In this document: piece after piece, positions 3,604-15,077 of the stretch | Numbering within the stretch: position 1 is the stretch's first letter | How the letters are laid out: each line of letters starts with the position of its first letter | Assembly (NCBI RefSeq): GCF_039919315.1 | Contig: NZ_JBDSFX010000053.1 | Location: 1,120-65,119, forward strand | Direction: 5' to 3' | Length of the DNA: 64,000 nt | Source: Dyadobacter sp. | GTDB lineage: Bacteria > Bacteroidota > Bacteroidia > Cytophagales > Spirosomataceae | The notes under the pieces: model-generated | Told to the model about the DNA's origin: nothing | Databases searched by the model: none | What the model saw: the letters and a program-made list of their open reading frames with translations, nothing else | Translations under genes and position numbers: made by a program

Positions 3604-5974
<2,371 letters not shown>

Positions 5975-5978
<4 letters not shown>

Positions 5979-6991
5979 AAGAATGTGTATTCATCACAGG
6001 GGCCAGTGGGTTCATAGGTTACCATCTGGTAGCGACCGCGCTCAAAGCAGGTATGGAAGTACATGCAGCGGTGAGGCCGTCCAGTGATCTGGCCTTTTTG
6101 AAACAGCTTCAAAAAGAGGCAGAACCCGGCACCCTGGTGTTTGAGAATATAGATTTCAGTTCAAAAGAATCTTTAAAATCGTTGCTGGAAAAAGGGGGCT
6201 ATACCTACATCATCCATGCAGCAGGCGTAACGAAGGCAAAAAATGCTGCAGCATATAACCTCGTGAATGCCGAATACTCGCTCAATCTGGCGCAGGCAGC
6301 CATGTCGTCTGATATTCCACTAAGGCGGTTTGTGCTCCTGAGCAGTTTGGCGGCCATTGGCCCGCTGGCCTATGCCGAGGAGCAGCCTATCACGGAGAGC
6401 ACTTTCCCCATTCCGGTGACGGATTACGGAAGAAGCAAGTTACTGGCAGAACAATACCTCGAAACCGTGAGTGGCTTGCCACTCAGCATTATCCGCCCGA
6501 CAGCGGTATACGGTCCCGGCGAAAAGGATTTGTTTGTGCTTTTCAAAACACTCAGCAAAGGCCTCGACGCATACATTGGCAACGGCCCGCAGCGACTGAG
6601 TTTTGTATATGTAAAAGACCTTGTAGCCGCTACCATGGCTGCATTGACCGAAAGTCAAAAAGAAGTGACGGTGTACAACATCTCCGATGGAAATGCTTAC
6701 GACCGTTACGCACTGGCTGACCGTTTCAGGGAAATCAGCGGAAGGCATATTTTTCGCACCCACCTGCCGATGGCACTGGTAAAACTGATAGCGGGATTTC
6801 TGGATTTTGTTTATGGATTTTCATCAACAACACCGGTACTGAACAAAGAGAAGCTGAAAGAACTGACAGCCTCCAACTGGATATGCAGCATTGACGCTGC
6901 GAGGAACAACCTGCAATACCGGCCGCAATATGATCTGCGACAAGGGCTTACGGAAACCCTGATCTGGTACAAAGAGAATAAATGGCTTTAA
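5975..6991 (+). CDS. Extended SDR NAD-dependent epimerase/dehydratase, ceramide reductase (CerR)-like
   Basis: ITGASGFIG Rossmann motif, LSSLAA, YGRSK catalytic motif, RPTAVYGP; ATGA overlap with the upstream gene. Confidence 0.7.
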
Positions 6992-7081: not shown

Positions 7082-9649
7082 ATGAAAACATTAATGAAGT
7101 CGGTATGGTTAAAGTTCTTGGTGATCCTGTGTGTAGCACAGATCGGATCGGGAGCGGCCATAGCGCAGACCACAACTATCAAAGGAACTATTACAGATGC
7201 GAAGACCGGTGAAACCCTGCCTTTCGTATCTATTCTGATACCCGGAACCACCATGGGAACCGCTTCCGATTCGGAAGGACGTTATGCTATGACTTTACGG
7301 GAAGATCACTCCACCATTAAATTCACCTACGTCGGCTACCTCAGCATTGAAAAACCGATTGAACCAGGGAAAAACCAGGTGCTTAATATCAAAATGTCAG
7401 TTGACGCTTCGATGTTGAAAGAGGTAACCATTAAAGGAAGGGGACGATACAGAAACAAGGATAATCCTGCTGTACAGCTGATCCGTGAAGTGATTGACCA
7501 TAAGGACCAGAACAAAATGGCCAGCAATGAATTCGTGGAATATGAGCAGTACGAGAAGATTTCGTTTGCGCTGAGCAACCTTTCGGATAATTTCAAGGAA
7601 AAACGGATTTTCAGGAATTATCAGTTTTTGTTCCAGGACCAGGATTCCACTGCCATGGGTGGCAAAAATATTTTGCCTGCCTACATTCAGGAAAAACTGT
7701 CACAGGTTTATTTCCGCAAAAGCCCTTATTCGAAAAAACAATGGGTACTGGCCAACAGACGCGCCGAATTTGATGCCAAGTTTATCGATAATGATGGTCT
7801 GAGCGCTTATTTCAACAGGTTGTATGAAGATATTAACCTGTACGAAAACGATGTGTCGATCGCTACCAACTTATTGTTGAGCCCGATCGCTAACACGGCA
7901 CCCACTTTTTACAAATACTTTATCAGGGATACCATCAAAACGAGTACGCCCTGGCTGGTAGAACTTGGATTTGTTCCCCGTAACAAAACAGACATGCTTT
8001 TTGAAGGCAAGCTGTTTATTACATTGGACGGTAACTACGGTGTTCAAAACGCGTATCTGACAGTCAATAAGGACATTAACCTCAATTTCATGCGTGACCT
8101 CGAAGCACGTCTGGAATATGAAAAAGGCCCGGACGGACGCTACCACCCGATTAAGACTACATTGGGAATGGAGTTTGCATTGGGCGAGAAAAATGCTGGT
8201 TTCTATGGTCAGCGCGTAGTGAATTTCAAAAACTACCTGATCAACCAAACCCGCCCGGACAGCGTTTACAATGGTCCGCGTGAGGAAATCGTGTTTAATC
8301 CTGAGGTGAAAACCGGCGAATCGTACTGGAATAGCGTAAGGCATATTCCACTGGAAAGAATGGAGCTGGATATCTACAAAAACGTAGATACACTGCAAAC
8401 GATCCCGTCATTCCGCCGTACGATGGACATTGCGACCTTGTTTTTATCGGGTTACAAATCCTTTGGGAAAGTAGAAGTTGGTCCGGTCAATACATTTTAC
8501 AGCTTCAACCCGATTGAAGGTTTTAGGCTTCGTTTTGGAGGAAGGACTACTACGGATTTCAGCAAACGCGTTTATTTCGAAACTTATGCGGCCTATGGTT
8601 TCAAGGACCGTAAATGGAAGTACTTTTTGAGTGGTACCTATTCATTCAACAACAAATCTGTTTACCATTTTCCATTGAACTATATCCGGGCGAGTTTTCA
8701 GCGCGATACTAAAATTCCTGGCCAGGATTTACAATTTGTTCAGGAAGATAACTTCCTGCTTTCGTTCAAAAGAGGCGATAACAACCGCTGGCTTTACAAT
8801 GACATTTACAAACTGGAATACGTCCGCGAATTCGAAAGTCGCTTGTCTTACAAAATTGGTTTTACCCAATGGAGACAAACTCCCGCAGGCGTGCTCCGCT
8901 ACGAGAACTTTGACAGAGACAGTGCCTTGCAAAATGTAGGCGGGCTGAGCAATACTGAGGCGAATTTTGAGCTGCGTTATGCGCCGCACGAGCAGTACTA
9001 CCAGGGAAAATTGTACCGGACGCCGATCATTAACAAGTACCCGATCTTCACATTGCGTTACAATGCAGGTTTGAAAGGGGTTTTCGAAGGCCAAAACAAG
9101 TATCACAATGTTGCCCTTAATATTTCAAAACGCGTGTACCTGTCACAGTTTGGCTATGCCGACGTGACGACCGAGGGTAGTTATATTTTTGGTAAAAACA
9201 TATTGTTCCCGTTGCTGTCCATTCACCGTGCCAACCAGACCTATGCTTACCAGCTGAACTCATATAACCTGATGAACTTCCTGGAATTCGTGAGTGATCA
9301 TTATGCCAGCCTGGATGTGCAGTACTATATGAATGGTTTTATTTTCAATAAAATACCATTGCTGAAAAAGTTGAAACTGCGCGAGGTTTTCAGTTTCAAA
9401 GGACTAGTGGGAGGCTTGCGTGATGAGAACAATCCGGCATTGAATCCGTCACTGTTCCGCTTTCCGGTGGATGCGGATGGCAAGCCGATCAGCTATACTT
9501 TATCGCGGGAGCCATACATTGAAGGTAGCGTGGGGGTAGCGAACATTTTCAAGCTGCTTCGTGTGGATCTGGTCAAACGTTTCACATACCTGGACAACCC
9601 GAATGTTTCGGAATGGGGAATTCGGGCGAGGTTCAGGCTTGATTTTTAA
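7082..9649 (+). CDS. Outer-membrane beta-barrel protein with N-terminal carboxypeptidase-regulatory-like domain (DUF5686-type)
   Basis: Signal peptide; IKGTITDAKTGETLPFVSI...SDSEGRY N-domain; FNPIEGFRLRFGG motif; C-terminal RARFRLDF with terminal Phe. Confidence 0.7.
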   Translation: MKTLMKSVWLKFLVILCVAQIGSGAAIAQTTTIKGTITDAKTGETLPFVSILIPGTTMGTASDSEGRYAMTLREDHSTIKFTYVGYLSIEKPIEPGKNQVLNIKMSVDASMLKEVTIKGRGRYRNKDNPAVQLIREVIDHKDQNKMASNEFVEYEQYEKISFALSNLSDNFKEKRIFRNYQFLFQDQDSTAMGGKNILPAYIQEKLSQVYFRKSPYSKKQWVLANRRAEFDAKFIDNDGLSAYFNRLYEDINLYENDVSIATNLLLSPIANTAPTFYKYFIRDTIKTSTPWLVELGFVPRNKTDMLFEGKLFITLDGNYGVQNAYLTVNKDINLNFMRDLEARLEYEKGPDGRYHPIKTTLGMEFALGEKNAGFYGQRVVNFKNYLINQTRPDSVYNGPREEIVFNPEVKTGESYWNSVRHIPLERMELDIYKNVDTLQTIPSFRRTMDIATLFLSGYKSFGKVEVGPVNTFYSFNPIEGFRLRFGGRTTTDFSKRVYFETYAAYGFKDRKWKYFLSGTYSFNNKSVYHFPLNYIRASFQRDTKIPGQDLQFVQEDNFLLSFKRGDNNRWLYNDIYKLEYVREFESRLSYKIGFTQWRQTPAGVLRYENFDRDSALQNVGGLSNTEANFELRYAPHEQYYQGKLYRTPIINKYPIFTLRYNAGLKGVFEGQNKYHNVALNISKRVYLSQFGYADVTTEGSYIFGKNILFPLLSIHRANQTYAYQLNSYNLMNFLEFVSDHYASLDVQYYMNGFIFNKIPLLKKLKLREVFSFKGLVGGLRDENNPALNPSLFRFPVDADGKPISYTLSREPYIEGSVGVANIFKLLRVDLVKRFTYLDNPNVSEWGIRARFRLDF

Positions 9650-9675: not shown

Positions 9676-10407
9676 ATGAATTATGCAATCATAGCGGCAG
9701 GAGAGGGTTCCAGATTGGCCAAGGAGGGTTTCACACTTCCCAAACCAATGGTAAGCCTCTACGGAGAGATGCTGATAGACAGGCTGATCGGGATTTTTAT
9801 GCGTAATAATGCAGAAAGGATCAAGATCATCATCAACGAAGATTCGGCGAGTCTGGAAAGTCATTTGTCTGAACTGAGCCGGACTATGCCGATTGACATT
9901 GTAAAAAAATCTACGCCGAGTTCATTGCATAGTGTTTACGAGCTTTTGAAAACAGACCCTGAACTGGATTCAGTTTGCCTGACCACCACGGATACCGTTT
10001 TCAAAGAGGAGGAATTCAGCGCATTCATTTCAAAGTTTGAACAAAACCAGCAAATGGAAGGGCAAATGGCGGTTACGTCATTCATTGATGACGAAAGCCC
10101 ATTGTTCGTGACAGTGGATGAAGAGAACCTGATTACTGCTTTTACCGACGACAATAGCACACATACGCCATTTGTTTCCGGTGGAATTTACTGTTTGAGG
10201 AAAAAGGCCATTGAAAATGTAAACCGGGCCGTGGAAGACGGACTGAGCAGAATGCGGAATTTTCAGCGGCAATTGCTGGAAAATGGCGTAAAACTCAAAG
10301 CATATCCTTTTTCCAAAATTGTGGATGTGGACCATGTGAGTGATATCCGTACAGCGGAACTGTTTTTAAGGCCAGAAAATGCGGCTTTGGAAATGATAAC
10401 CAACTAA
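9676..10407 (+). CDS. Nucleotidyltransferase (NTP_transferase family)
   Basis: IIAAGEGSRL...PKPMV signature; DVDHVSDI near the C-terminus. Confidence 0.85.
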   Translation: MNYAIIAAGEGSRLAKEGFTLPKPMVSLYGEMLIDRLIGIFMRNNAERIKIIINEDSASLESHLSELSRTMPIDIVKKSTPSSLHSVYELLKTDPELDSVCLTTTDTVFKEEEFSAFISKFEQNQQMEGQMAVTSFIDDESPLFVTVDEENLITAFTDDNSTHTPFVSGGIYCLRKKAIENVNRAVEDGLSRMRNFQRQLLENGVKLKAYPFSKIVDVDHVSDIRTAELFLRPENAALEMITN

Positions 10408-10458
10408 TTGACACTAATTAATTAAAAGACCGGAGCGTTTTGCCGGTCGCCAGCGTAC

Positions 10459-11328
10459 ATGAATGAATTAGAAATACTGGGCGTTCACCGTAATAAAAAG
10501 TTTTCGCCTAACCATATTGGTAATGATGATGCGATTTTTTCTCTGACAGCAAAAGAACTTGAAAAACTAGGGTGCGATGTCACCATTTGCTGCGAAGATG
10601 AATTTTTGGCCATGGAGCACGTGGAGTATAAAAAAGTGTTCACCATGGCCCGTCAGAAAGAGGTGGTTGCCAAGTTGCAAGTATTGGAAAAGAATGGTGT
10701 CCAGGTTTTGAACTCAGCATTCGGCATTGAAAACTGTTTCAGAACCAACCTGACCAATGCATTGAATTTGAACAATATCCCGGTTGCGGAAAGTTACATT
10801 GTTCCTACGAGTTATCAGGATGATGAAGTTTTTGATAAAATAACAGGCAAGGGTTACTGGATCAAGCGCGGAGATTTTCATGCGATCCATAAAGAAGACG
10901 TTTCCTTTGCTGTTTCCAAATCGGAAGCGAAAGAGATATTGAGGGAGTATGCATTGCGTGACATTCCCGACGCGGTGATTTCCAAACACCTGATCGGCGA
11001 CCTGGTGAAGTTTTACGGAGTGCGTGGTACTGACTTTTTCTTTTGGTTTTATCCCTATGATAACAACCATCATAAATATTCAGAATACCAGGACATCAAT
11101 GGTGAATCGGTTTATTACCCGTTTGATGCATTGAAACTGAAAGATGTGGCGACAGATGCAGCTGGTTTTGTAGGGATTGAAATATATGGTGGAGATGCGA
11201 TTGTCGGCAAAGACGGGAAGTTCAGGATCATCGATTTGAATGATTGGCCAAGTTTTGCACCTTGCCGCGACCAGGCAGCCGGCCATATTGCAGGCATGCT
11301 ATATCAGAAATTTACAAGCGCTAATTAA
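10459..11328 (+). CDS. ATP-grasp fold protein, unknown substrate
   Basis: YWIKRGD, VISKHLIGDLVKFYGV, IYGGDAIV...IIDLNDWPSF (C-terminal ATP-grasp metal-binding motif). Confidence 0.65.
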   Translation: MNELEILGVHRNKKFSPNHIGNDDAIFSLTAKELEKLGCDVTICCEDEFLAMEHVEYKKVFTMARQKEVVAKLQVLEKNGVQVLNSAFGIENCFRTNLTNALNLNNIPVAESYIVPTSYQDDEVFDKITGKGYWIKRGDFHAIHKEDVSFAVSKSEAKEILREYALRDIPDAVISKHLIGDLVKFYGVRGTDFFFWFYPYDNNHHKYSEYQDINGESVYYPFDALKLKDVATDAAGFVGIEIYGGDAIVGKDGKFRIIDLNDWPSFAPCRDQAAGHIAGMLYQKFTSAN

Positions 11329-12302
11329 TGGACACAGCCAGCACCGGAAATACAGTCACAAAAGAAGCAGAAAAAGAGGTTTCTGCATTCGAAAGTTCGC
11401 TCAAATCCAACGACACGGAGGAGCAGATCGACATTTGGTTTTATCGCCCGATAGGGTATCAAATTGCCTTGTTTTGCGCTAAAATTGGTTTGCGGCCTAA
11501 TCCTGTGACCATAATCAGCATATTTTTTGGTGTGGCAGCTGGGATTTTGTTTTACTACCAGGAATTGTGGATCAATGTGATCGGAATGCTTTTGCTGGTT
11601 TTTGCCAATTCGCTGGATAGTGCCGACGGACAGCTGGCCAGGATGACGAATGATAAAAGCAGGCTGGGAAGGATTCTGGACGGAGCGGCAGGCGATTTCT
11701 GGTTCATAGCGATCCACATTGCGATCTGTTTGAGAAGCCAGAATGAAGGATGGAGCGCATGGATATGGGTGCCCGGGGTACTGGCAGGTGCATCGCACGT
11801 AGTACAATCGGCGATGGCGGATTACTATCGGAATGTGCATTTGTTTTTCATCAAAGGAACATCTGGCAGCGAGCTGGATAATAGCGCGGAACTTCAAAAG
11901 GAATACGATAGCCTGAGCTGGTCGAAGAATTTTGGAATGAAATTCATCGCCCGTACTTATTTGAACTATACCAAATTACAGGAAAGCTTTTCACCCAACC
12001 TGCAAAAATTGCTGGCGGTGGTGAGAGGAAAGTACAAGAATGGATTACCGCAGACATTGGTGACCGATTTTCGTGCGCAAAACAAGCCGCTGATGAAGTA
12101 TACCAACATTGTACAGTTCAACACCCGGGTGCTTTTTTTGTTCCTATGGCTGTTTTTGGACCAGTCGTGGATCTATTTTTTCTTTGACATGTTTGTCCTC
12201 AACCCGATCCTTGTATATATGATCGTGAACCAGGAAAAAGTGAGCCGTTATTTTTATCAGCAGATTTCAACTGACAAAACGAATGGGTACCAAGGCGTAT
12301 AA
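11328..12302 (+). CDS. CDP-alcohol phosphotransferase family protein
   Basis: RPNPVT; LDSADGQLARMTNDKSRLGRILD matches DxxDGxxARx8GxxxD; TAATG overlap with the ATP-grasp gene. Confidence 0.9.
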   Translation: MDTASTGNTVTKEAEKEVSAFESSLKSNDTEEQIDIWFYRPIGYQIALFCAKIGLRPNPVTIISIFFGVAAGILFYYQELWINVIGMLLLVFANSLDSADGQLARMTNDKSRLGRILDGAAGDFWFIAIHIAICLRSQNEGWSAWIWVPGVLAGASHVVQSAMADYYRNVHLFFIKGTSGSELDNSAELQKEYDSLSWSKNFGMKFIARTYLNYTKLQESFSPNLQKLLAVVRGKYKNGLPQTLVTDFRAQNKPLMKYTNIVQFNTRVLFLFLWLFLDQSWIYFFFDMFVLNPILVYMIVNQEKVSRYFYQQISTDKTNGYQGV

Positions 12303-13293
12303 AGCCCTTTTCATGGTGATCGGCATCATTTCACTGGGCTATATGATTTATAGCACAGGGCTGACCGTGATTTGGGAAAACGTTCAGAAAACTGGCATTT
12401 GGTTCGTTCCGGTGATGGGTAGCTGGCTTTTAATTTATATACTCAATGCATTCGCTTTCCGGGCGATCATTCGCGAACCTGAGTTACCAGAAAGCAACCT
12501 GTCATTTTGGGCGGTACTAAGGCTCACCATTTCGGGATATGCGATCAATTACATTACGCCATTTGTGGCGCTGGGTGGAGAGCCCTACCGGATTCTGGAA
12601 TTGAAACCTGCGCTGGGGATACAAAAAGCAACATCGTCGGTGCTGCTATACAGCTTAATGCACATGTTTTCGCATGTGTTGTTCTGGCTGGCTTCGATCT
12701 TGCTGATTGTCGCGGTGGTTCCTTTGAGCAATGTAATGCTGGCGGGATGCGGCGTATTACTGGTTACCGGGCTCGTTTTGGGGTACTGGTTTATTAATGT
12801 GTATAAAAAAGGATTTACGGTCAGCACATTCCGTTTGCTTGAAAAAGTCCCTTTTATCAAAACCAGGGCGCGTGAGTTTGCATTGAAAAATGCTGAAAAC
12901 CTGTACGAAGTGGACGAGCAGATCAGGGTACTGTATGCCGAACGAAGAAATGTGTTTTATGCTTCTTTGTTTTACGAGTTTTTGGCCAGGACGATTGGCT
13001 GTCTTGAAATTTTCTTCACAGCACATGCCATTGGTTTGGAAATGAGTTTGTCGCAATCGCTGATTGTAAGCTCAGGTTCATCATTATTTGCCAATCTGAT
13101 CTTCTTTTTCCCCATGCAGCTGGGTACCCGCGAGGGCGGACTGGCGCTGGCTTTGAGAAGTGTAGGCTTGCCAGCGGCACAGGGGATTTTTATAGGAATA
13201 GTGCTCAGGATCAGGGAGATCGTGTGGATCATCATTGGTTTAGCATTGATTACTAAGAAAGTGAAGGTGAAGGAGGAGGTGGTTTTGCAGTGA
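12283..13293 (+). CDS. Lysylphosphatidylglycerol-synthase-TM (flippase-like) membrane protein
   Basis: Multi-TM; NYITPFVALGGEPYR and PMQLGTREGGL motifs; 20-nt overlap with the upstream gene. Confidence 0.8.
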   Translation: MGTKAYKALFMVIGIISLGYMIYSTGLTVIWENVQKTGIWFVPVMGSWLLIYILNAFAFRAIIREPELPESNLSFWAVLRLTISGYAINYITPFVALGGEPYRILELKPALGIQKATSSVLLYSLMHMFSHVLFWLASILLIVAVVPLSNVMLAGCGVLLVTGLVLGYWFINVYKKGFTVSTFRLLEKVPFIKTRAREFALKNAENLYEVDEQIRVLYAERRNVFYASLFYEFLARTIGCLEIFFTAHAIGLEMSLSQSLIVSSGSSLFANLIFFFPMQLGTREGGLALALRSVGLPAAQGIFIGIVLRIREIVWIIIGLALITKKVKVKEEVVLQ

Positions 13294-13391
13294 GCTTTCG
13301 GCAGTCGGCTTTCGGCTGTCAGCTTTAATATTTGGATTAGTAAATTTTAAGAACTTAATAAATGTCTGACGGCTGACGGCCGACAGCCGAA
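13294..13391. repeat. Inverted heptamer-repeat element (REP-like)
   Basis: Left arm GCTTTCG GCAGTCG GCTTTCG GCTGTCA; right arm GTCTGAC GGCTGAC GGCCGAC AGCCGAA (complementary phase); AT-rich spacer. Confidence 0.7.
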
Positions 13392-13397
13392 GTACAA

Positions 13398-14111
13398 ATG
13401 ACAAAAGGAATTCTACTTGATTACGGCGGTACAATTGATACCAACGGCCTGCATTGGGCCAATGTGTTGTGGGAAAGCTACCAGCATAATCAGGTGAATG
13501 TGGACAGGGATGCGTTCGCAAATGCATATAAGTTCGGAGAGCGGGCATTGGCCATCCAGCCGATCATTGAGCCGCATCACGTTTTCTATGATGTTTTGTT
13601 CCTGAAAGTTGAGCAGCAATTCGCTTTTTTGAAAGAGAACGGACACCAGGTAAATGATGCTGCGATTGAAGCAATTGCGAATGAATGTAACCTTTTTGCA
13701 CGCACTACTGTTGAAAAAGCTGCGCCGGTTTTAGCACAACTGTCGCAAAGTTACCCTCTCGTGATGGTTTCCAATTTTTATGGAAACATTCAGAACGTTT
13801 TGAAGGATTTTGGCATTGCCCATTACTTTCAGGCTGTGGTTGAATCTGCTGTCGTCGGTGTCCGGAAACCCGATCCGCAAATTTACAAGCTGGGAATTGA
13901 TTCGCTCGGCTTTCTTCCTGAGGAATGCGTGGTGATCGGGGATTCTTATTCCAAAGACATTTTACCCGCAAAAGCATTGGGCTGCAAAGCATTATGGCTT
14001 AATGTGAAAGGCTGGGAAGATGCCGCTGACCACGAGCAGAAAGTTTCGGTTGCAGATGTTGAGATCACAGATTTTAACCAGACGCCGGACGCAATAAGAA
14101 GTCTGGATTAG
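13398..14111 (+). CDS. HAD-superfamily hydrolase (phosphatase)
   Basis: LLDYGGTIDT motif I, VSNF motif II, RKPDP motif III, GDSYSKD motif IV. Confidence 0.9.
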   Translation: MTKGILLDYGGTIDTNGLHWANVLWESYQHNQVNVDRDAFANAYKFGERALAIQPIIEPHHVFYDVLFLKVEQQFAFLKENGHQVNDAAIEAIANECNLFARTTVEKAAPVLAQLSQSYPLVMVSNFYGNIQNVLKDFGIAHYFQAVVESAVVGVRKPDPQIYKLGIDSLGFLPEECVVIGDSYSKDILPAKALGCKALWLNVKGWEDAADHEQKVSVADVEITDFNQTPDAIRSLD

Positions 14112-14168: not shown

Positions 14169-15077
14169 ATGTACGACATTTGCACCATAGGGCACATTAC
14201 ACTGGATAAGGTAGTTACGGCCCAATCTGTCAAATACATGCCCGGCGGTACCTCGTTTTATTTTTCAAAAGCGCTCAGGCAATTTGACCTGAAATATATG
14301 CTGGTGACGGCATTGGCGGAGGAGGAAAGTCATATCGTAGCAGGTTTGAGAGACGAGAACATTGAGGTTTTTTCTCAAAACAGCCCCTATACCGTTTACT
14401 TCGAAAATATTTACAGTGCCAATCAGGACCACCGTGAACAGAATGTGCTGCACAAAGCCGCCCCATTCACAGTAGCGCAAATGCCCGCGATTGACGCCAA
14501 GATATTTCACCTCGGCCCGTTGCTTTCGGATGATATCGCTGTCGATCTGTTAAAATCACTCGCTTCCAAAGGAATGGTTTCACTGGATATTCAGGGATAC
14601 CTGCGATATGTGAAGGACAAAAAGGTGTTTTACGAAGACTGGGCTAATAAAAAAGAAGCCTTGCAACATGTTTCCATTCTCAAAGCGAATGAATTTGAAA
14701 TGGAGGTAGTAACAGGCACCAGCGATGTACGCGAAGGCGCACAGTACCTGGCCGACCTGGGAGTGAAAGAAGTGATCATTACGCTTGGCAGCAAAGGTTC
14801 ATTGATCTTCAAAGACAACCATTTTTTCCGGATACCGGCTTTTAAGCCATCGGCAGTAGTGGATGCGACAGGTTGTGGCGATACCTATATGGCCGGATAC
14901 CTGAGTAAAAAAGTAGCGGGAGCAGGTGTGCAGGAAGCGGGCGAATTCGGTGCGGCCATGGCTACATTGAAAATCCAGTCTTCCGGACCATTTTCGGGGG
15001 ATACCGGAATGGTGGAAGAAGTGCTCCGGTATGGTGAATGTGACAGAGAAGTGATTGCCCAGGCAATTTATTTATAG
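14169..15077 (+). CDS. PfkB/ribokinase-family sugar or polyol kinase
   Basis: IGHITLD, PGGTSFY, LDIQG, KANEFE, ITLGSKGS, DATGCGDTY. Confidence 0.9.
   Translation: MYDICTIGHITLDKVVTAQSVKYMPGGTSFYFSKALRQFDLKYMLVTALAEEESHIVAGLRDENIEVFSQNSPYTVYFENIYSANQDHREQNVLHKAAPFTVAQMPAIDAKIFHLGPLLSDDIAVDLLKSLASKGMVSLDIQGYLRYVKDKKVFYEDWANKKEALQHVSILKANEFEMEVVTGTSDVREGAQYLADLGVKEVIITLGSKGSLIFKDNHFFRIPAFKPSAVVDATGCGDTYMAGYLSKKVAGAGVQEAGEFGAAMATLKIQSSGPFSGDTGMVEEVLRYGECDREVIAQAIYL

What the first reader, a model, noticed from the sequence alone, without database searches (positions are those of the whole stretch)
10459..11328. ATP-grasp protein with an ITPK1-like C-terminal motif inside a lipid head-group operon
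Seen: YGGDAIV...IIDLNDWPSF, with Asp where RimK/ligase-type ATP-grasps usually show EVN. Established: inositol-phosphate kinases of the ITPK1 family are ATP-grasp enzymes with an IDINxFP motif, known from eukaryotes and Asgard archaea. Inference: a bacterial inositol-phosphate kinase making an InsP2 for CDP activation. That would give a phosphorylated lipid intermediate and explain why the operon also needs a HAD phosphatase.
Basis: inference. Interest (0 to 1): 0.6.

Follow-up and report, generated by a model that had tools for sequence, protein, structure and literature searches.

The report
Orphan ATP-grasp enzyme in inositol-lipid operon
This Dyadobacter gene encodes an unnamed ATP-using enzyme that almost always sits between the genes Bacteroidota are thought to use to attach inositol head groups to membrane lipids; the published pathway model omits it, and it most likely adds a phosphate to the head-group precursor, though no assay exists.

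Summary
ORF 10459-11328 (289 aa) carries YGGDAIV...IIDLNDWPSF and folds as a complete three-domain ATP-grasp enzyme (pLDDT 94.9).

It matches no Pfam family. It is not an ITPK1 member. Structure (RimK Z 21.6, ITPK1 19.4) and profile comparison (RimK 97.7%, ITPK1 51-79%) both place it nearer RimK/LysX ligases. It is not a normal RimK either: the Gly-rich loop, DIR, FRxN..GG and ExN motifs are replaced. D259xN261 never shows Glu in 146 representatives. Profile search against PDB sequences matches that C-terminal block to ITPK1-family kinases.

Context is the stronger evidence. In nearly all of 80 Bacteroidota loci the order is NTP-transferase, this gene, CDP-alcohol transferase, HAD. This is the unverified "alternative inositol lipid cluster" of Heaver 2022, which never mentions this gene. 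Fusions join it to the nucleotidyltransferase. The HAD fuses only to the membrane proteins.

No activity has been measured. This scan has noted the same gene on other genomes.

The parts
10459..11328 (+). Orphan ATP-grasp protein (P0001, 289 aa), the finding itself
   Evidence: Translation. AF2 model pLDDT 94.9, three-domain ATP-grasp. No Pfam family. 4864 homologues, all 'hypothetical' or 'ATP-grasp domain'.
10864..10866 (+). K136, predicted ATP-phosphate-binding lysine (WxKRGD)
   Evidence: K in 150 of 151 representatives. Aligned to RimK's 'VVKL' Lys and ITPK1 K157.
11008..11010 (+). K184 (LVKFYGV), at the position of the ligase Arg (RimK DIR, PsnB DVR)
   Evidence: K in 148 of 150 representatives. 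Aligned to Arg of RimK and PsnB. Aligned to ITPK1 K199 but not.
11185..11205 (+). YGGDAIV block with D246, first Mg ligand
   Evidence: D in 143 of 148. Aligned to ITPK1 D281 and RimK 'GVD'.
11227..11256 (+). IIDLNDWPSF block with D259-x-N261, Mg ligands in the ITPK1-like DxN form
   Evidence: D in 141 of 146, never E; N in 143 of 145. Aligned to ITPK1 D295/N297 and RimK E-V-N.
9676..10407 (+). NTP-transferase, IPCT-like cytidylyltransferase candidate
   Evidence: PF00483/PF12804. Full-length match to T. maritima inositol-1-phosphate cytidylyltransferase 4jd0, E 1.7e-3. Fused to the ATP-grasp in several protein clusters.
11328..12302 (+). CDP-alcohol phosphotransferase (DIPPS/BEPIS-like); its start overlaps the ATP-grasp stop by 1 nt
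   Evidence: PF01066. Best solved relative is AF2299 IPCT/DIPPS, 1.3e-6. Overlap shown.
12283..13293 (+). LPG_synthase_TM / HpnL-like membrane protein (flippase-like)
   Evidence: PF03706, TIGR03476. An orthologue is fused to the HAD in P0490.
13398..14111 (+). HAD-IA phosphatase
   Evidence: PF00702/PF13419. Orthologues are fused C-terminally to the CDP-OH transferase or the LPG_synthase_TM protein.
14169..15077 (+). PfkB kinase resembling TM0415, a myo-inositol kinase
   Evidence: PF00294. TM0415 8e-34 over the full length. TM0415 is a PPi-dependent myo-inositol kinase (PMC5931981).
15093..15665 (+). DUF4833 protein, travels with the PfkB gene in Spirosomaceae
   Evidence: PF16117. Synteny.
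7082..9649 (+). DUF5686 / CarboxypepD_reg protein, recurrent neighbour of inositol-lipid clusters
   Evidence: Also next to the T. forsythia cluster. Heaver 2022 notes such a neighbour.
3634..6991 (+). Ceramide backbone genes: serine palmitoyltransferase, GNAT-like (bCerS-type) and SDR (CerR-type)
Evidence: NF047600 at 728 bits, over the cut-off. GNAT and epimerase Pfam hits.

Best explanation
P0001 belongs to an unclassified ATP-grasp family that is a core, overlooked component of the CDP-inositol-type lipid head-group module of Bacteroidota (NTP-transferase, ATP-grasp, CDP-alcohol phosphotransferase, HAD). Its most likely role is a kinase, not a ligase. It would use ATP to put a second phosphate on the inositol monophosphate, which is supplied by inositol-phosphate synthase or, in this genome, by the TM0415-like PfkB inositol kinase. 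The neighbouring cytidylyltransferase would activate the bisphosphate to CDP-inositol-phosphate. The CDP-alcohol transferase would pass it to ceramide or diacylglycerol, giving a phosphorylated inositol lipid. The membrane-tethered HAD would remove the extra phosphate. Shown here: the fold, the intact ATP/Mg site, the altered ligase motifs, the synteny and the fusions. Inferred: the kinase chemistry, the substrate, the order of the kinase and cytidylyltransferase steps, and the phosphorylated intermediate. One possible rationale, also inference, is stereochemical. The synthase makes D-Ins3P, whereas canonical inositol lipids are linked through position 1. A 1-kinase paired with a 3-phosphatase would correct this in a CDP-inositol route.
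For: (1) The fold is confident (pLDDT 94.9) and is a full ATP-grasp. K136, D246, D259 and N261 are near-invariant in 151 representatives, so it should bind ATP-Mg. (2) RimK-clade ligase motifs are replaced. The GtqG loop becomes RGDxxAxxxxDV, DiR becomes LVK, fr.N.h.GG becomes KFGlE..NG, and EvN becomes DxN. The DxN..P block matches ITPK1-family kinases. (3) The nearest named non-self cluster by language-model features is an Asgard Ins134_P3_kin cluster at 0.97; this is a lead only. (4) In nearly all of 80 loci from Dyadobacter to Tannerella, Parabacteroides, Muribaculaceae and Sphingobacterium the order is NTPtr-GRASP-CDPOH-(LPGtm)-HAD, often beside an inositol-phosphate synthase gene. (5) Recurrent fusions exist in many independent contigs: NTPtr-GRASP and NTPtr-GRASP-CDPOH. 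The HAD is fused only to the two membrane proteins. This places GRASP on the soluble precursor side and HAD on the lipid-product side. (6) The partners resemble CDP-inositol enzymes: IPCT 4jd0 and AF2299 IPCT/DIPPS. (7) InsP supply is covered by other genes. The PfkB is TM0415-like. T. forsythia has no inositol synthesis genes and uses only exogenous inositol (PMC4587543), and it carries a 54%-identical PfkB. The ATP-grasp is therefore not needed as the first kinase. (8) The end products reported for carriers of this cluster are plain inositol-phospho-dihydroceramides (PMC9246714; PMC4587543). That leaves no role for an amide or ester ligase but does allow a transient phosphate. (9) ITPK1 is known to phosphorylate Ins1P and Ins3P (PMC6900528), so the chemistry has precedent on this fold.
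Against: Overall the family is closer to amide-forming ligases than to ITPK1. VIA Z scores are RimK 21.6 and LysX/ArgX 21.4-21.6 against HsITPK1 19.4 and EhITPK1 17.5. hhalign against a RimK-family profile gives 97.7%, E 1.6e-12 over 267 columns, against 51-79% and E 1.5e-5 to 1.6e-4 for a less diverse vertebrate ITPK1 profile. There is no Pfam PF05770 hit. The K184-to-K199 equivalence is alignment-dependent, present and absent. According to Megson 2015 (the primary paper was not read), the Rhodothermus CDP-inositol lipid operon is described as only synthase, IPCT and BEPIS, with no ATP-grasp or HAD, so the extra phosphate is not chemically required. Spending an ATP and then discarding the phosphate looks wasteful. 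No enzyme assay, mutant or lipid intermediate exists for any family member.
Confidence: 0.4

Rival explanations
1. It is a RimK/LysX-type carboxylate ligase. It would activate a carboxylate, such as an amino acid or a protein or peptide C-terminus, as an acyl-phosphate and join it to an amine or hydroxyl, for example a transient or unnoticed acylation of the head group or of a carrier protein.
For: The closest structural and profile relatives are RimK, LysX/ArgX and PsnB. Weak NCBIfam hits to rimK_fam and MptN. Most ATP-grasp enzymes are ligases (established knowledge).
Against: Four RimK-clade motifs are replaced, including the conserved Arg (K in 148 of 150) and the Glu of ExN (never E). No aminotransferase, amino-acid or carrier-protein gene is conserved in the Bacteroidota module. 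The lipids reported from carriers have an unmodified inositol phosphate head group. The genome has its own true RimK elsewhere.
Confidence: 0.15
2. It is a free myo-inositol kinase in a dephosphorylate-then-rephosphorylate or salvage route. The HAD would turn D-Ins3P into inositol (or inositol is imported), the ATP-grasp would make Ins1P, and this would be activated to CDP-inositol and transferred with no phosphorylated lipid intermediate.
For: The same gene set is explained, and so is the stereochemical problem. T. forsythia builds its lipids only from exogenous inositol. NTPtr-GRASP fusions fit consecutive soluble steps.
Against: The HAD is repeatedly fused to the CDP-alcohol transferase or the flippase-like membrane protein and never to the soluble enzymes. 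That points to a lipid-side substrate. T. forsythia keeps the HAD although it has no Ins3P to dephosphorylate. A dedicated TM0415-like inositol kinase is present in this cluster and in T. forsythia and P. distasonis. ITPK1 enzymes do not phosphorylate free inositol.
Confidence: 0.1
3. It is a lipid kinase in a 'CDP-ceramide' route. The ATP-grasp would phosphorylate ceramide or diacylglycerol, the NTP-transferase would make the CDP-lipid, the CDP-alcohol transferase would add Ins3P as PIP synthase does, and the HAD would remove the 3-phosphate.
For: It explains the kinase, nucleotidyltransferase, transferase and phosphatase, and also the same fusion pattern. The CDP-alcohol transferase also gives weak hits to PIP/AIP synthases. 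In this window the module is fused to ceramide backbone genes.
Against: The NTP-transferase is a small soluble sugar-phosphate-type enzyme that aligns end to end with inositol-1-phosphate cytidylyltransferase. The best solved relative of the transferase uses CDP-inositol. No ATP-grasp lipid kinase is known to me (from memory). The ATP-grasp model shows no membrane segment.
Confidence: 0.07
4. It is a regulatory or sensing ATP-binding module rather than a pathway enzyme.
For: The domain also occurs at the C-terminus of a PAS-HisKA-HATPase_c sensor kinase. That cluster has 54 members on many contigs.
Against: The full catalytic set is near-invariant, including in the sensor-kinase fusion. The gene is translationally coupled within a biosynthetic operon and is fused to biosynthetic enzymes.
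Confidence: 0.05

Closest known systems
ITPK1 / inositol 1,3,4-trisphosphate 5/6-kinase family (Pfam PF05770 + PF17927; PDB 2qb5, 1z2n, 7pup, 8oxe)
   Same: Three-domain ATP-grasp fold, with Z 17.5-19.4 over about 250-266 residues. The C-terminal G.D....G...IDxN.(F/W)P block has Asp, not Glu. There is a genomic link to inositol-phosphate synthesis, as for the Lokiarchaeal ITPKs that flank synthase genes. ITPK1 accepts Ins1P and Ins3P.
   Different: No PF05770 or PF17927 hit. Profile similarity is weak, at 51-79% and about 15% identity. The N-terminal and central parts resemble RimK/LysX instead. It is bacterial, sits in a lipid head-group operon and is fused to a cytidylyltransferase. Activity is unknown.
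RimK / LysX / ArgX alpha-L-glutamate-type ATP-grasp ligases (PF08443; PDB 4iwx, 5k2m, 3vpb)
   Same: Best structural matches, with Z 21.4-21.6. Best profile match, at 97.7% and E 1.6e-12 over the full length. Same size and domain order.
   Different: Scores far below family cut-offs: rimK_fam 23 bits against 143. The Gly-rich loop, DIR Arg, FRxN..GG and ExN motifs are all replaced. There is no carrier-protein or amino-acid context.
'Putative alternative inositol lipid cluster' of Bacteroides (Phocaeicola) vulgatus and Prevotella (Heaver et al. 2022, PMC9246714)
   Same: [quoted passage not shown] Carriers make inositol-phospho-dihydroceramide.
   Different: The paper and its held supplements never mention the ATP-grasp gene. 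Locus tags RS13095 and RS13105 leave room for one gene between them; that this gene is the homologue is my inference. The paper proposes plain CDP-inositol and a HAD acting as a PI-to-ceramide transferase. The Dyadobacter version lacks an adjacent synthase and adds ceramide backbone genes, PfkB and DUF4833.
Rhodothermus marinus IPS-IPCT-BEPIS operon (Jorge et al. 2015, as described in PMC4587543) and the archaeal/Thermotoga IPCT-DIPPS-phosphatase pathway
   Same: CDP-inositol-type logic. The transferase and cytidylyltransferase are their nearest characterised relatives. DIPPS also yields a phosphorylated product that a phosphatase finishes (established knowledge).
   Different: Those systems have no ATP-grasp. 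In DIP synthesis the extra phosphate comes from the acceptor Ins3P, not from a kinase.
PIP synthase plus PIP phosphatase route (Mycobacterium; B. thetaiotaomicron BT_1523/BT_1525)
   Same: The logic of a phosphorylated inositol lipid intermediate that is then dephosphorylated.
   Different: The donor is CDP-diacylglycerol and the phosphate comes from Ins3P. The phosphatase is PgpA-like, not HAD. There is no ATP-grasp and no soluble cytidylyltransferase.

Membership tests
ATP-grasp superfamily | Three-domain ATP-grasp fold | tested here: met
   AF2 pLDDT 94.9. At least 500 Foldseek hits at E<=1e-3, all of the top ones ATP-grasp. Z up to 21.6 over the whole chain.
ATP-grasp superfamily | ATP-binding Lys and three acidic/amide Mg ligands | tested here: met
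   K136 in 150 of 151, D246 in 143 of 148, D259 in 141 of 146, N261 in 143 of 145.
ITPK1 (PF05770/PF17927) | Sequence reaches the Pfam family threshold | tested here: not met
   No hit for P0001 even at E<=10. Only 5 of 69 relatives give marginal hits, best E 0.058.
ITPK1 (PF05770/PF17927) | IDxNxFP Mg-binding block with Asp (D295/N297 in the human enzyme) | tested here: met
   IIDLNDWPSF aligned to VIDINAFPGY, VVDVNVFPSY and IVDLNYLPSF. ITPK1 numbering checked.
ITPK1 (PF05770/PF17927) | Lys at the K199 position (LYKVFVVG) | tested here: inconclusive
   K184 aligns to K199, but the profile-profile alignment shifts this segment. K184 aligns robustly to the Arg of RimK and PsnB.
ITPK1 (PF05770/PF17927) | Closest relatives by structure and profile are ITPKs | tested here: not met
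   RimK/LysX rank above ITPK1 by about 2 Z units and by hhalign score, 90 against 38-46. The ITPK1 profile used was less diverse.
ITPK1 (PF05770/PF17927) | Inositol phosphate kinase activity | not testable with these tools
   Needs an enzyme assay.
RimK/LysX ligases (PF08443, TIGR00768) | Sequence reaches the family threshold | tested here: not met
   rimK_fam 23 bits against a cut-off of 143.4. No Pfam RimK hit for P0001. 5 of 69 relatives are marginal.
RimK/LysX ligases (PF08443, TIGR00768) | E-x-N Mg-binding motif | tested here: not met
   D259 is never E in 146 representatives. It is aligned to RimK EVN.
RimK/LysX ligases (PF08443, TIGR00768) | Conserved Arg of the D-I-R strand and the F-R-x-N...G-G motif | tested here: not met
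   K184 in 148 of 150. FRSN is aligned to KFG-L, and only NG is retained.
RimK/LysX ligases (PF08443, TIGR00768) | Gly-rich G-T-Q-G-x-G flexible loop after the ATP Lys | tested here: not met
   Replaced by RGDxxAxxxxDV with an invariant D147.
Bacteroidota 'alternative inositol lipid cluster' (Heaver 2022) | [quoted passage not shown] | tested here: met
   Window genes at 9676-14111. The same order is seen in nearly all of 80 loci.
Bacteroidota 'alternative inositol lipid cluster' (Heaver 2022) | Inositol-3-phosphate synthase next to the cluster | tested here: not met
   None in the window. A sub-threshold MIPS-like ORF lies on another contig. Many other loci do have an adjacent synthase gene. 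Here a TM0415-like inositol kinase is in the cluster instead.
Bacteroidota 'alternative inositol lipid cluster' (Heaver 2022) | Product is an inositol phospholipid or sphingolipid | not testable with these tools
   Needs lipidomics of Dyadobacter and of mutants.

The most novel reading that the evidence does not exclude
This would be the first bacterial ATP-grasp inositol-phosphate kinase. It would have evolved from the RimK-like ligase clade and not from ITPK1. It would make an inositol bisphosphate that is activated to a so far undescribed nucleotide, CDP-inositol-phosphate. Inositol sphingolipids of Prevotella, Phocaeicola, Parabacteroides, Tannerella and soil Cytophagales would then be built through a phosphorylated lipid intermediate that a membrane-tethered HAD phosphatase finishes.
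Probability: 0.4. Interest if true: 0.75.

Novelty: new variant of a known kind. Interest (0 to 1): 0.6.

Why it matters
Inositol sphingolipids are major membrane lipids of gut and oral Bacteroidota. They make up about 25% of membrane lipids in Tannerella forsythia (PMC4587543) and affect fitness in the host (PMC9246714). The "alternative" pathway, which dominates in Prevotella, has never been verified. Its published model leaves out a gene that is as conserved as the three genes it names.

If the ATP-grasp is a kinase, the model must change. The donor would be CDP-inositol-phosphate and the HAD would be a lipid phosphatase. Inositol-phosphate kinase chemistry would then exist in bacteria on a scaffold that arose separately from eukaryotic and Asgard ITPK1.

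The question can be tested directly with one recombinant enzyme and two deletions in genetically tractable Bacteroidales.

Tried and rejected
The genomic context of the fused proteins and of the sensor-kinase fusion could not be read. Cluster membership was used instead.
- No RNA holder is listed for this stretch, so expression and co-transcription could not be examined.
- The sigma-70 promoter and terminator scan gave nothing interpretable inside the operon. Bacteroidota promoters are not covered by it.
- A phylum-wide even sample found the family in only 4 of 121 genomes. That is too few for a co-occurrence test of ATP-grasp against HAD.
- I tested whether three other carriers lack serine palmitoyltransferase. 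This was inconclusive: the hits of 350-491 bits are below the 640-bit cut-off, and the model also rings in most control genomes.
- Loci without a HAD or transferase hit (L066, L033) were checked for a replacement phosphatase such as PgpA. None was found. L033 has a BACON-domain gene inserted, and L066 is an incomplete cluster.
- Residue-level structural superposition on ITPK1 and RimK was not possible, because the fold tools return ranges only. Sequence alignment of the central strand to ITPK1 is unstable.
- The RimK versus ITPK1 profile comparison is not fully balanced. The RimK profile had Neff 2.6 and the vertebrate ITPK1 profile 1.5. No Asgard or plant ITPK sequences could be fetched.
- Complex prediction was not run. 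I do not claim binding, and the natural fusions already show the functional link.
- Heaver's suggestion that the HAD transfers phosphoinositol from PI to ceramide was considered and set aside. HAD enzymes transfer phosphoryl groups through an aspartyl-phosphate (established knowledge).
Full report
**Observation.** The ORF at 10459-11328 on the + strand encodes 289 residues. YGGDAIV is residues 243-249 and IIDLNDWPSF is residues 257-266, corresponding to nt 11185-11256. The start lies 51 nt after the stop of an NTP-transferase gene. The TAA stop shares one base with the ATG of a CDP-alcohol phosphotransferase gene.

**What the protein is.**
- It matches no Pfam family, even at E<=10. In NCBIfam it gives only a 23-bit partial hit to rimK_fam, whose cut-off is 143.
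- It has thousands of homologues, with 4864 at E<=1e-3 in the 90% clusters. The named ones come from Dyadobacter (83% identity), Runella, Larkinella, Pedobacter and Sediminibacterium. All are labelled hypothetical or 'ATP-grasp domain-containing'.
- An exhaustive search of 50%-identity representatives finds 986 clusters, 263 of them below 1e-30.
- With 69 diverse relatives as the alignment, AlphaFold2 gives a model with pLDDT 94.9 and pTM 0.91.

- The model is a complete three-domain ATP-grasp.
- Against one representative per 40% cluster of the PDB, the top rows are:
  - RimK, Z 21.6, rmsd 3.3 over 258 residues
  - LysX/ArgX, Z 21.6 and 21.4
  - a RimK-domain protein, Z 21.1
  - carbamoyl-phosphate synthetase, Z 20.6
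  - D-Ala-D-Ala ligase, Z 19.9
  - synapsin, Z 19.7
- The inositol kinases follow: human ITPK1 19.4, PPIP5K2 18.8, potato ITPK1 18.5, AtITPK4 18.2 and Entamoeba ITPK1 17.5.
- Foldseek agrees. ArgX, Ddl and PsnB come first, and an ITPK1 appears at rank 47.
- By overall structure the protein therefore sits slightly closer to amide-forming ligases than to ITPK1. A gap of about 2 Z units at Z of about 20 does not decide function.

**Sequence-profile comparison.**
- A profile of the family searched against PDB sequences finds PsnB (6e-5), Entamoeba ITPK1 (1e-4), AtITPK4 (7e-4), human ITPK1 (3e-3) and ArgX (5e-3).
- The ITPK hits rest entirely on the C-terminal block, residues 218-281. The ligase hits rest on residues 60-125.
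- hhalign against single sequences is a tie: ITPK1 52.6% and E. coli RimK 42%.
- With family profiles on both sides the tie breaks. A RimK-family profile of 13 sequences gives 97.7%, E 1.6e-12, over 267 columns from residue 4 to 287. An ITPK1 profile of 11 vertebrate sequences gives 51-79%, E 1.5e-5 to 1.6e-4.
- The ITPK1 profile is less diverse, so the comparison is not fully balanced. Taken together with the structure, I still conclude that the family belongs to the RimK-like branch of ATP-grasp enzymes and is not an ITPK1 family member.
- The genome has a genuine RimK elsewhere.

**Active site.** The family is not an ordinary RimK-type ligase either. I compared 151 cluster representatives of the family with the conserved columns of the RimK alignment, using the high-confidence alignment.

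| Feature | RimK family | This family |
|---|---|---|
| ATP lysine | kept | K136, 150 of 151 |
| Gly-rich loop | GtqG.gv | RGDxxAxxxxDV, with D147 in 147 of 151 |
| Strand motif | DiR | LVK, with K184 in 148 of 150 |
| Next motif | fr.N.h.GG | KFGlE..NG |
| Mg-binding motif | EvN | DxN, with D259 in 141 of 146, never Glu |

- The last state, with the following aromatic-Pro, is the ITPK1 form. ITPK1 residue numbers D281, D295, N297, K157 and K199 were checked.
- Whether K184 equals ITPK1 K199 depends on the alignment. says yes and says no, so I count it as inconclusive.
- R11, R65 and R95 are also highly conserved. This would suit an anionic substrate but does not prove one.

**Genomic context.** This is the stronger line of evidence.
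- The window carries, all on the + strand:
  - serine palmitoyltransferase (728 bits, over the cut-off)
  - a GNAT-like gene
  - an SDR
  - a DUF5686/CarboxypepD_reg protein
  - an NTP-transferase
  - the ATP-grasp
  - a CDP-alcohol phosphotransferase
  - an LPG_synthase_TM/HpnL-like membrane protein
  - a HAD-IA phosphatase
  - a PfkB kinase
  - DUF4833
- A scan of one genome per species returned at least 591 loci. In the 80 best, the order NTP-transferase, ATP-grasp, CDP-alcohol transferase, (LPG_synthase_TM), HAD is nearly universal. These loci come from Dyadobacter, Runella, Larkinella, Sphingobacterium, Parapedobacter, Dysgonomonas, Parabacteroides, Tannerella, Muribaculaceae and Prevotellaceae. 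An inositol-phosphate synthase gene is often adjacent. It was confirmed by Pfam in L033.
- This is the 'putative alternative inositol lipid cluster' that Heaver et al. defined from B. vulgatus by its NTP-transferase (BVU_RS13095), phosphatidyltransferase (RS13105) and HAD (RS13115). They proposed it to explain inositol-phospho-dihydroceramide in B. vulgatus and Prevotella veroralis (PMC9246714).
- Neither that paper nor its held supplements mention an ATP-grasp. I found no later paper in the library that does.

**Partners and precursor supply.**
- The NTP-transferase aligns end to end with Thermotoga inositol-1-phosphate cytidylyltransferase.
- The best solved relative of the transferase is the Archaeoglobus IPCT/DIPPS protein AF2299.
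- The PfkB is 8e-34 to TM0415 over its full length. TM0415 is a pyrophosphate-dependent myo-inositol kinase (PMC5931981).
- The Dyadobacter genome has no canonical PF07994 synthase. It has a sub-threshold MIPS-like ORF on another contig.
- T. forsythia lacks inositol synthesis genes and builds its inositol-phospho-dihydroceramides solely from exogenous inositol. Its authors could find neither an inositol kinase nor an IPCT (PMC4587543).
- I find that T. forsythia has the full four-gene module (L069), preceded by a permease. It also has a 54%-identical homologue of the PfkB elsewhere in the genome.
- Supply of inositol monophosphate is therefore covered either by a synthase or by the PfkB. The ATP-grasp is kept in both situations, so it is unlikely to be the first kinase.

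**Fusions.**
- Independent protein clusters, each seen on several contigs from several sources, fuse NTP-transferase to ATP-grasp (about 500-550 aa, seven clusters).
- Others fuse NTP-transferase, ATP-grasp and CDP-alcohol transferase (814-818 aa).
- A search for long proteins containing the HAD found about a hundred clusters. In those that carry a second Pfam domain, the HAD orthologue is joined to one of two membrane proteins and never to the ATP-grasp or the NTP-transferase:
  - the CDP-alcohol transferase; in P0457 that part is 54% identical to the window's enzyme and the HAD lies at the C-terminus
  - the LPG_synthase_TM protein; in P0490 that part is 43% identical
- These pairings were confirmed.
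- The pattern places the ATP-grasp on the soluble, pre-activation side and the HAD at the membrane on the product side.

**Mechanism.**
The ATP-grasp phosphorylates the inositol monophosphate. The cytidylyltransferase activates the bisphosphate. The transferase puts phospho-inositol-phosphate on ceramide or diacylglycerol. The HAD removes the extra phosphate.
- ITPK1 shows that this fold can phosphorylate Ins1P and Ins3P.
- A rationale, which is my inference, is stereochemical. The synthase product is D-Ins3P. A CDP-inositol route from it would link the lipid through position 3. A 1-kinase followed later by a 3-phosphatase would give the canonical 1-linkage, as the PIP-synthase route does by other means.
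- Against this reading stand four points: the family's kinship with ligases, the apparent waste of ATP, the absence of any assay, and the report that the Rhodothermus CDP-inositol lipid operon is described without an ATP-grasp or HAD (second-hand).
- I put this model at about 0.4.
- The rivals are:
  - a true ligase (0.15)
  - a free-inositol kinase with the HAD acting upstream (0.1; disfavoured by the HAD fusions and by the separate PfkB)
  - a lipid kinase in a CDP-ceramide route (0.07; disfavoured by the IPCT-like soluble NTP-transferase)
  - a regulatory ATP-binding module (0.05; suggested only by a sensor-kinase fusion)

**Relation to earlier work in this scan.** The scan has already flagged this same ATP-grasp gene on other genomes, and earlier follow-ups reached a similar reading. 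I treated those notes as leads only. Derived here independently:
- the balanced RimK versus ITPK1 profile test
- the motif-by-motif comparison
- the HAD fusion survey
- the T. forsythia PfkB result

**Verdict.** The feature is real. It is an uncharacterised ATP-grasp family that is a core part of a known but unverified pathway. It is neither an ITPK1 nor a normal RimK, and it is probably a kinase. Its function remains to be shown at the bench.

Noticed in passing
Protein P0264 and its cluster (not in the window): A 691-aa sensor histidine kinase (PAS_3, HisKA, HATPase_c) ends in a domain of this ATP-grasp family with the full catalytic residue set. The cluster has 54 members on many contigs. 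The reason a two-component sensor carries this domain is unexplained.
   Followed up: partly
L069:7536-12506 (Tannerella forsythia ATCC 43037) and L084: Megson et al. 2015 reported no IPCT and no inositol kinase candidate in T. forsythia. The BEPIS-like transferase is in fact flanked by an NTP-transferase, the ATP-grasp and a HAD, and is preceded by an Asp-Al_Ex/TrkA_C permease. A TM0415-like PfkB (54% identical to the window's) lies on another contig.
   Followed up: partly
window:14169-15077: The PfkB kinase is most similar to TM0415, a pyrophosphate-dependent myo-inositol kinase (8e-34). I did not check whether the five PPi-signature residues (K171, F221, R229, R232, M266 of TM0415) are present.
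   Followed up: partly
window:15093-15665: A DUF4833 gene follows the PfkB in all Spirosomaceae loci and in Parapedobacter. It sits next to the DUF5686 gene in Sediminibacterium and Ferruginibacter loci. Its function is unknown.
   Followed up: no
L001:1294-2487 (-), contig C10 of the same genome: A 397-aa ORF of the inositol-3-phosphate synthase family scores 295 bits against TIGR03450, whose cut-off is 638. It has PF01658 but no PF07994 hit. It may be a divergent synthase or a related enzyme.
   Followed up: partly
L033:8181-9269 and L071:8109-9242: pdxA (4-hydroxythreonine-4-phosphate dehydrogenase family) lies directly upstream of the NTP-transferase in L033 and L071. ORFs of similar size (370-385 aa) sit in the same place in four other Bacteroidales loci, but they were not annotated.
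   Followed up: no
L033:10884-12656: In Dysgonomonas sp. 25, a 590-aa protein with three BACON domains occupies the place of the CDP-alcohol transferase between the ATP-grasp and the HAD.
   Followed up: no
Genome G104, contigs C9 and C51: One Bacteroidota genome has three copies of the ATP-grasp gene. Two are in tandem on C51, and one of those has an internal TAA. There is a HAD copy near each site.
   Followed up: no
window:3634-6991: Serine palmitoyltransferase, a GNAT-like gene and an SDR overlap by 4 nt each and are joined to the head-group module in one co-oriented row in all Spirosomaceae loci. Backbone and head-group genes therefore form one locus here.
   Followed up: partly
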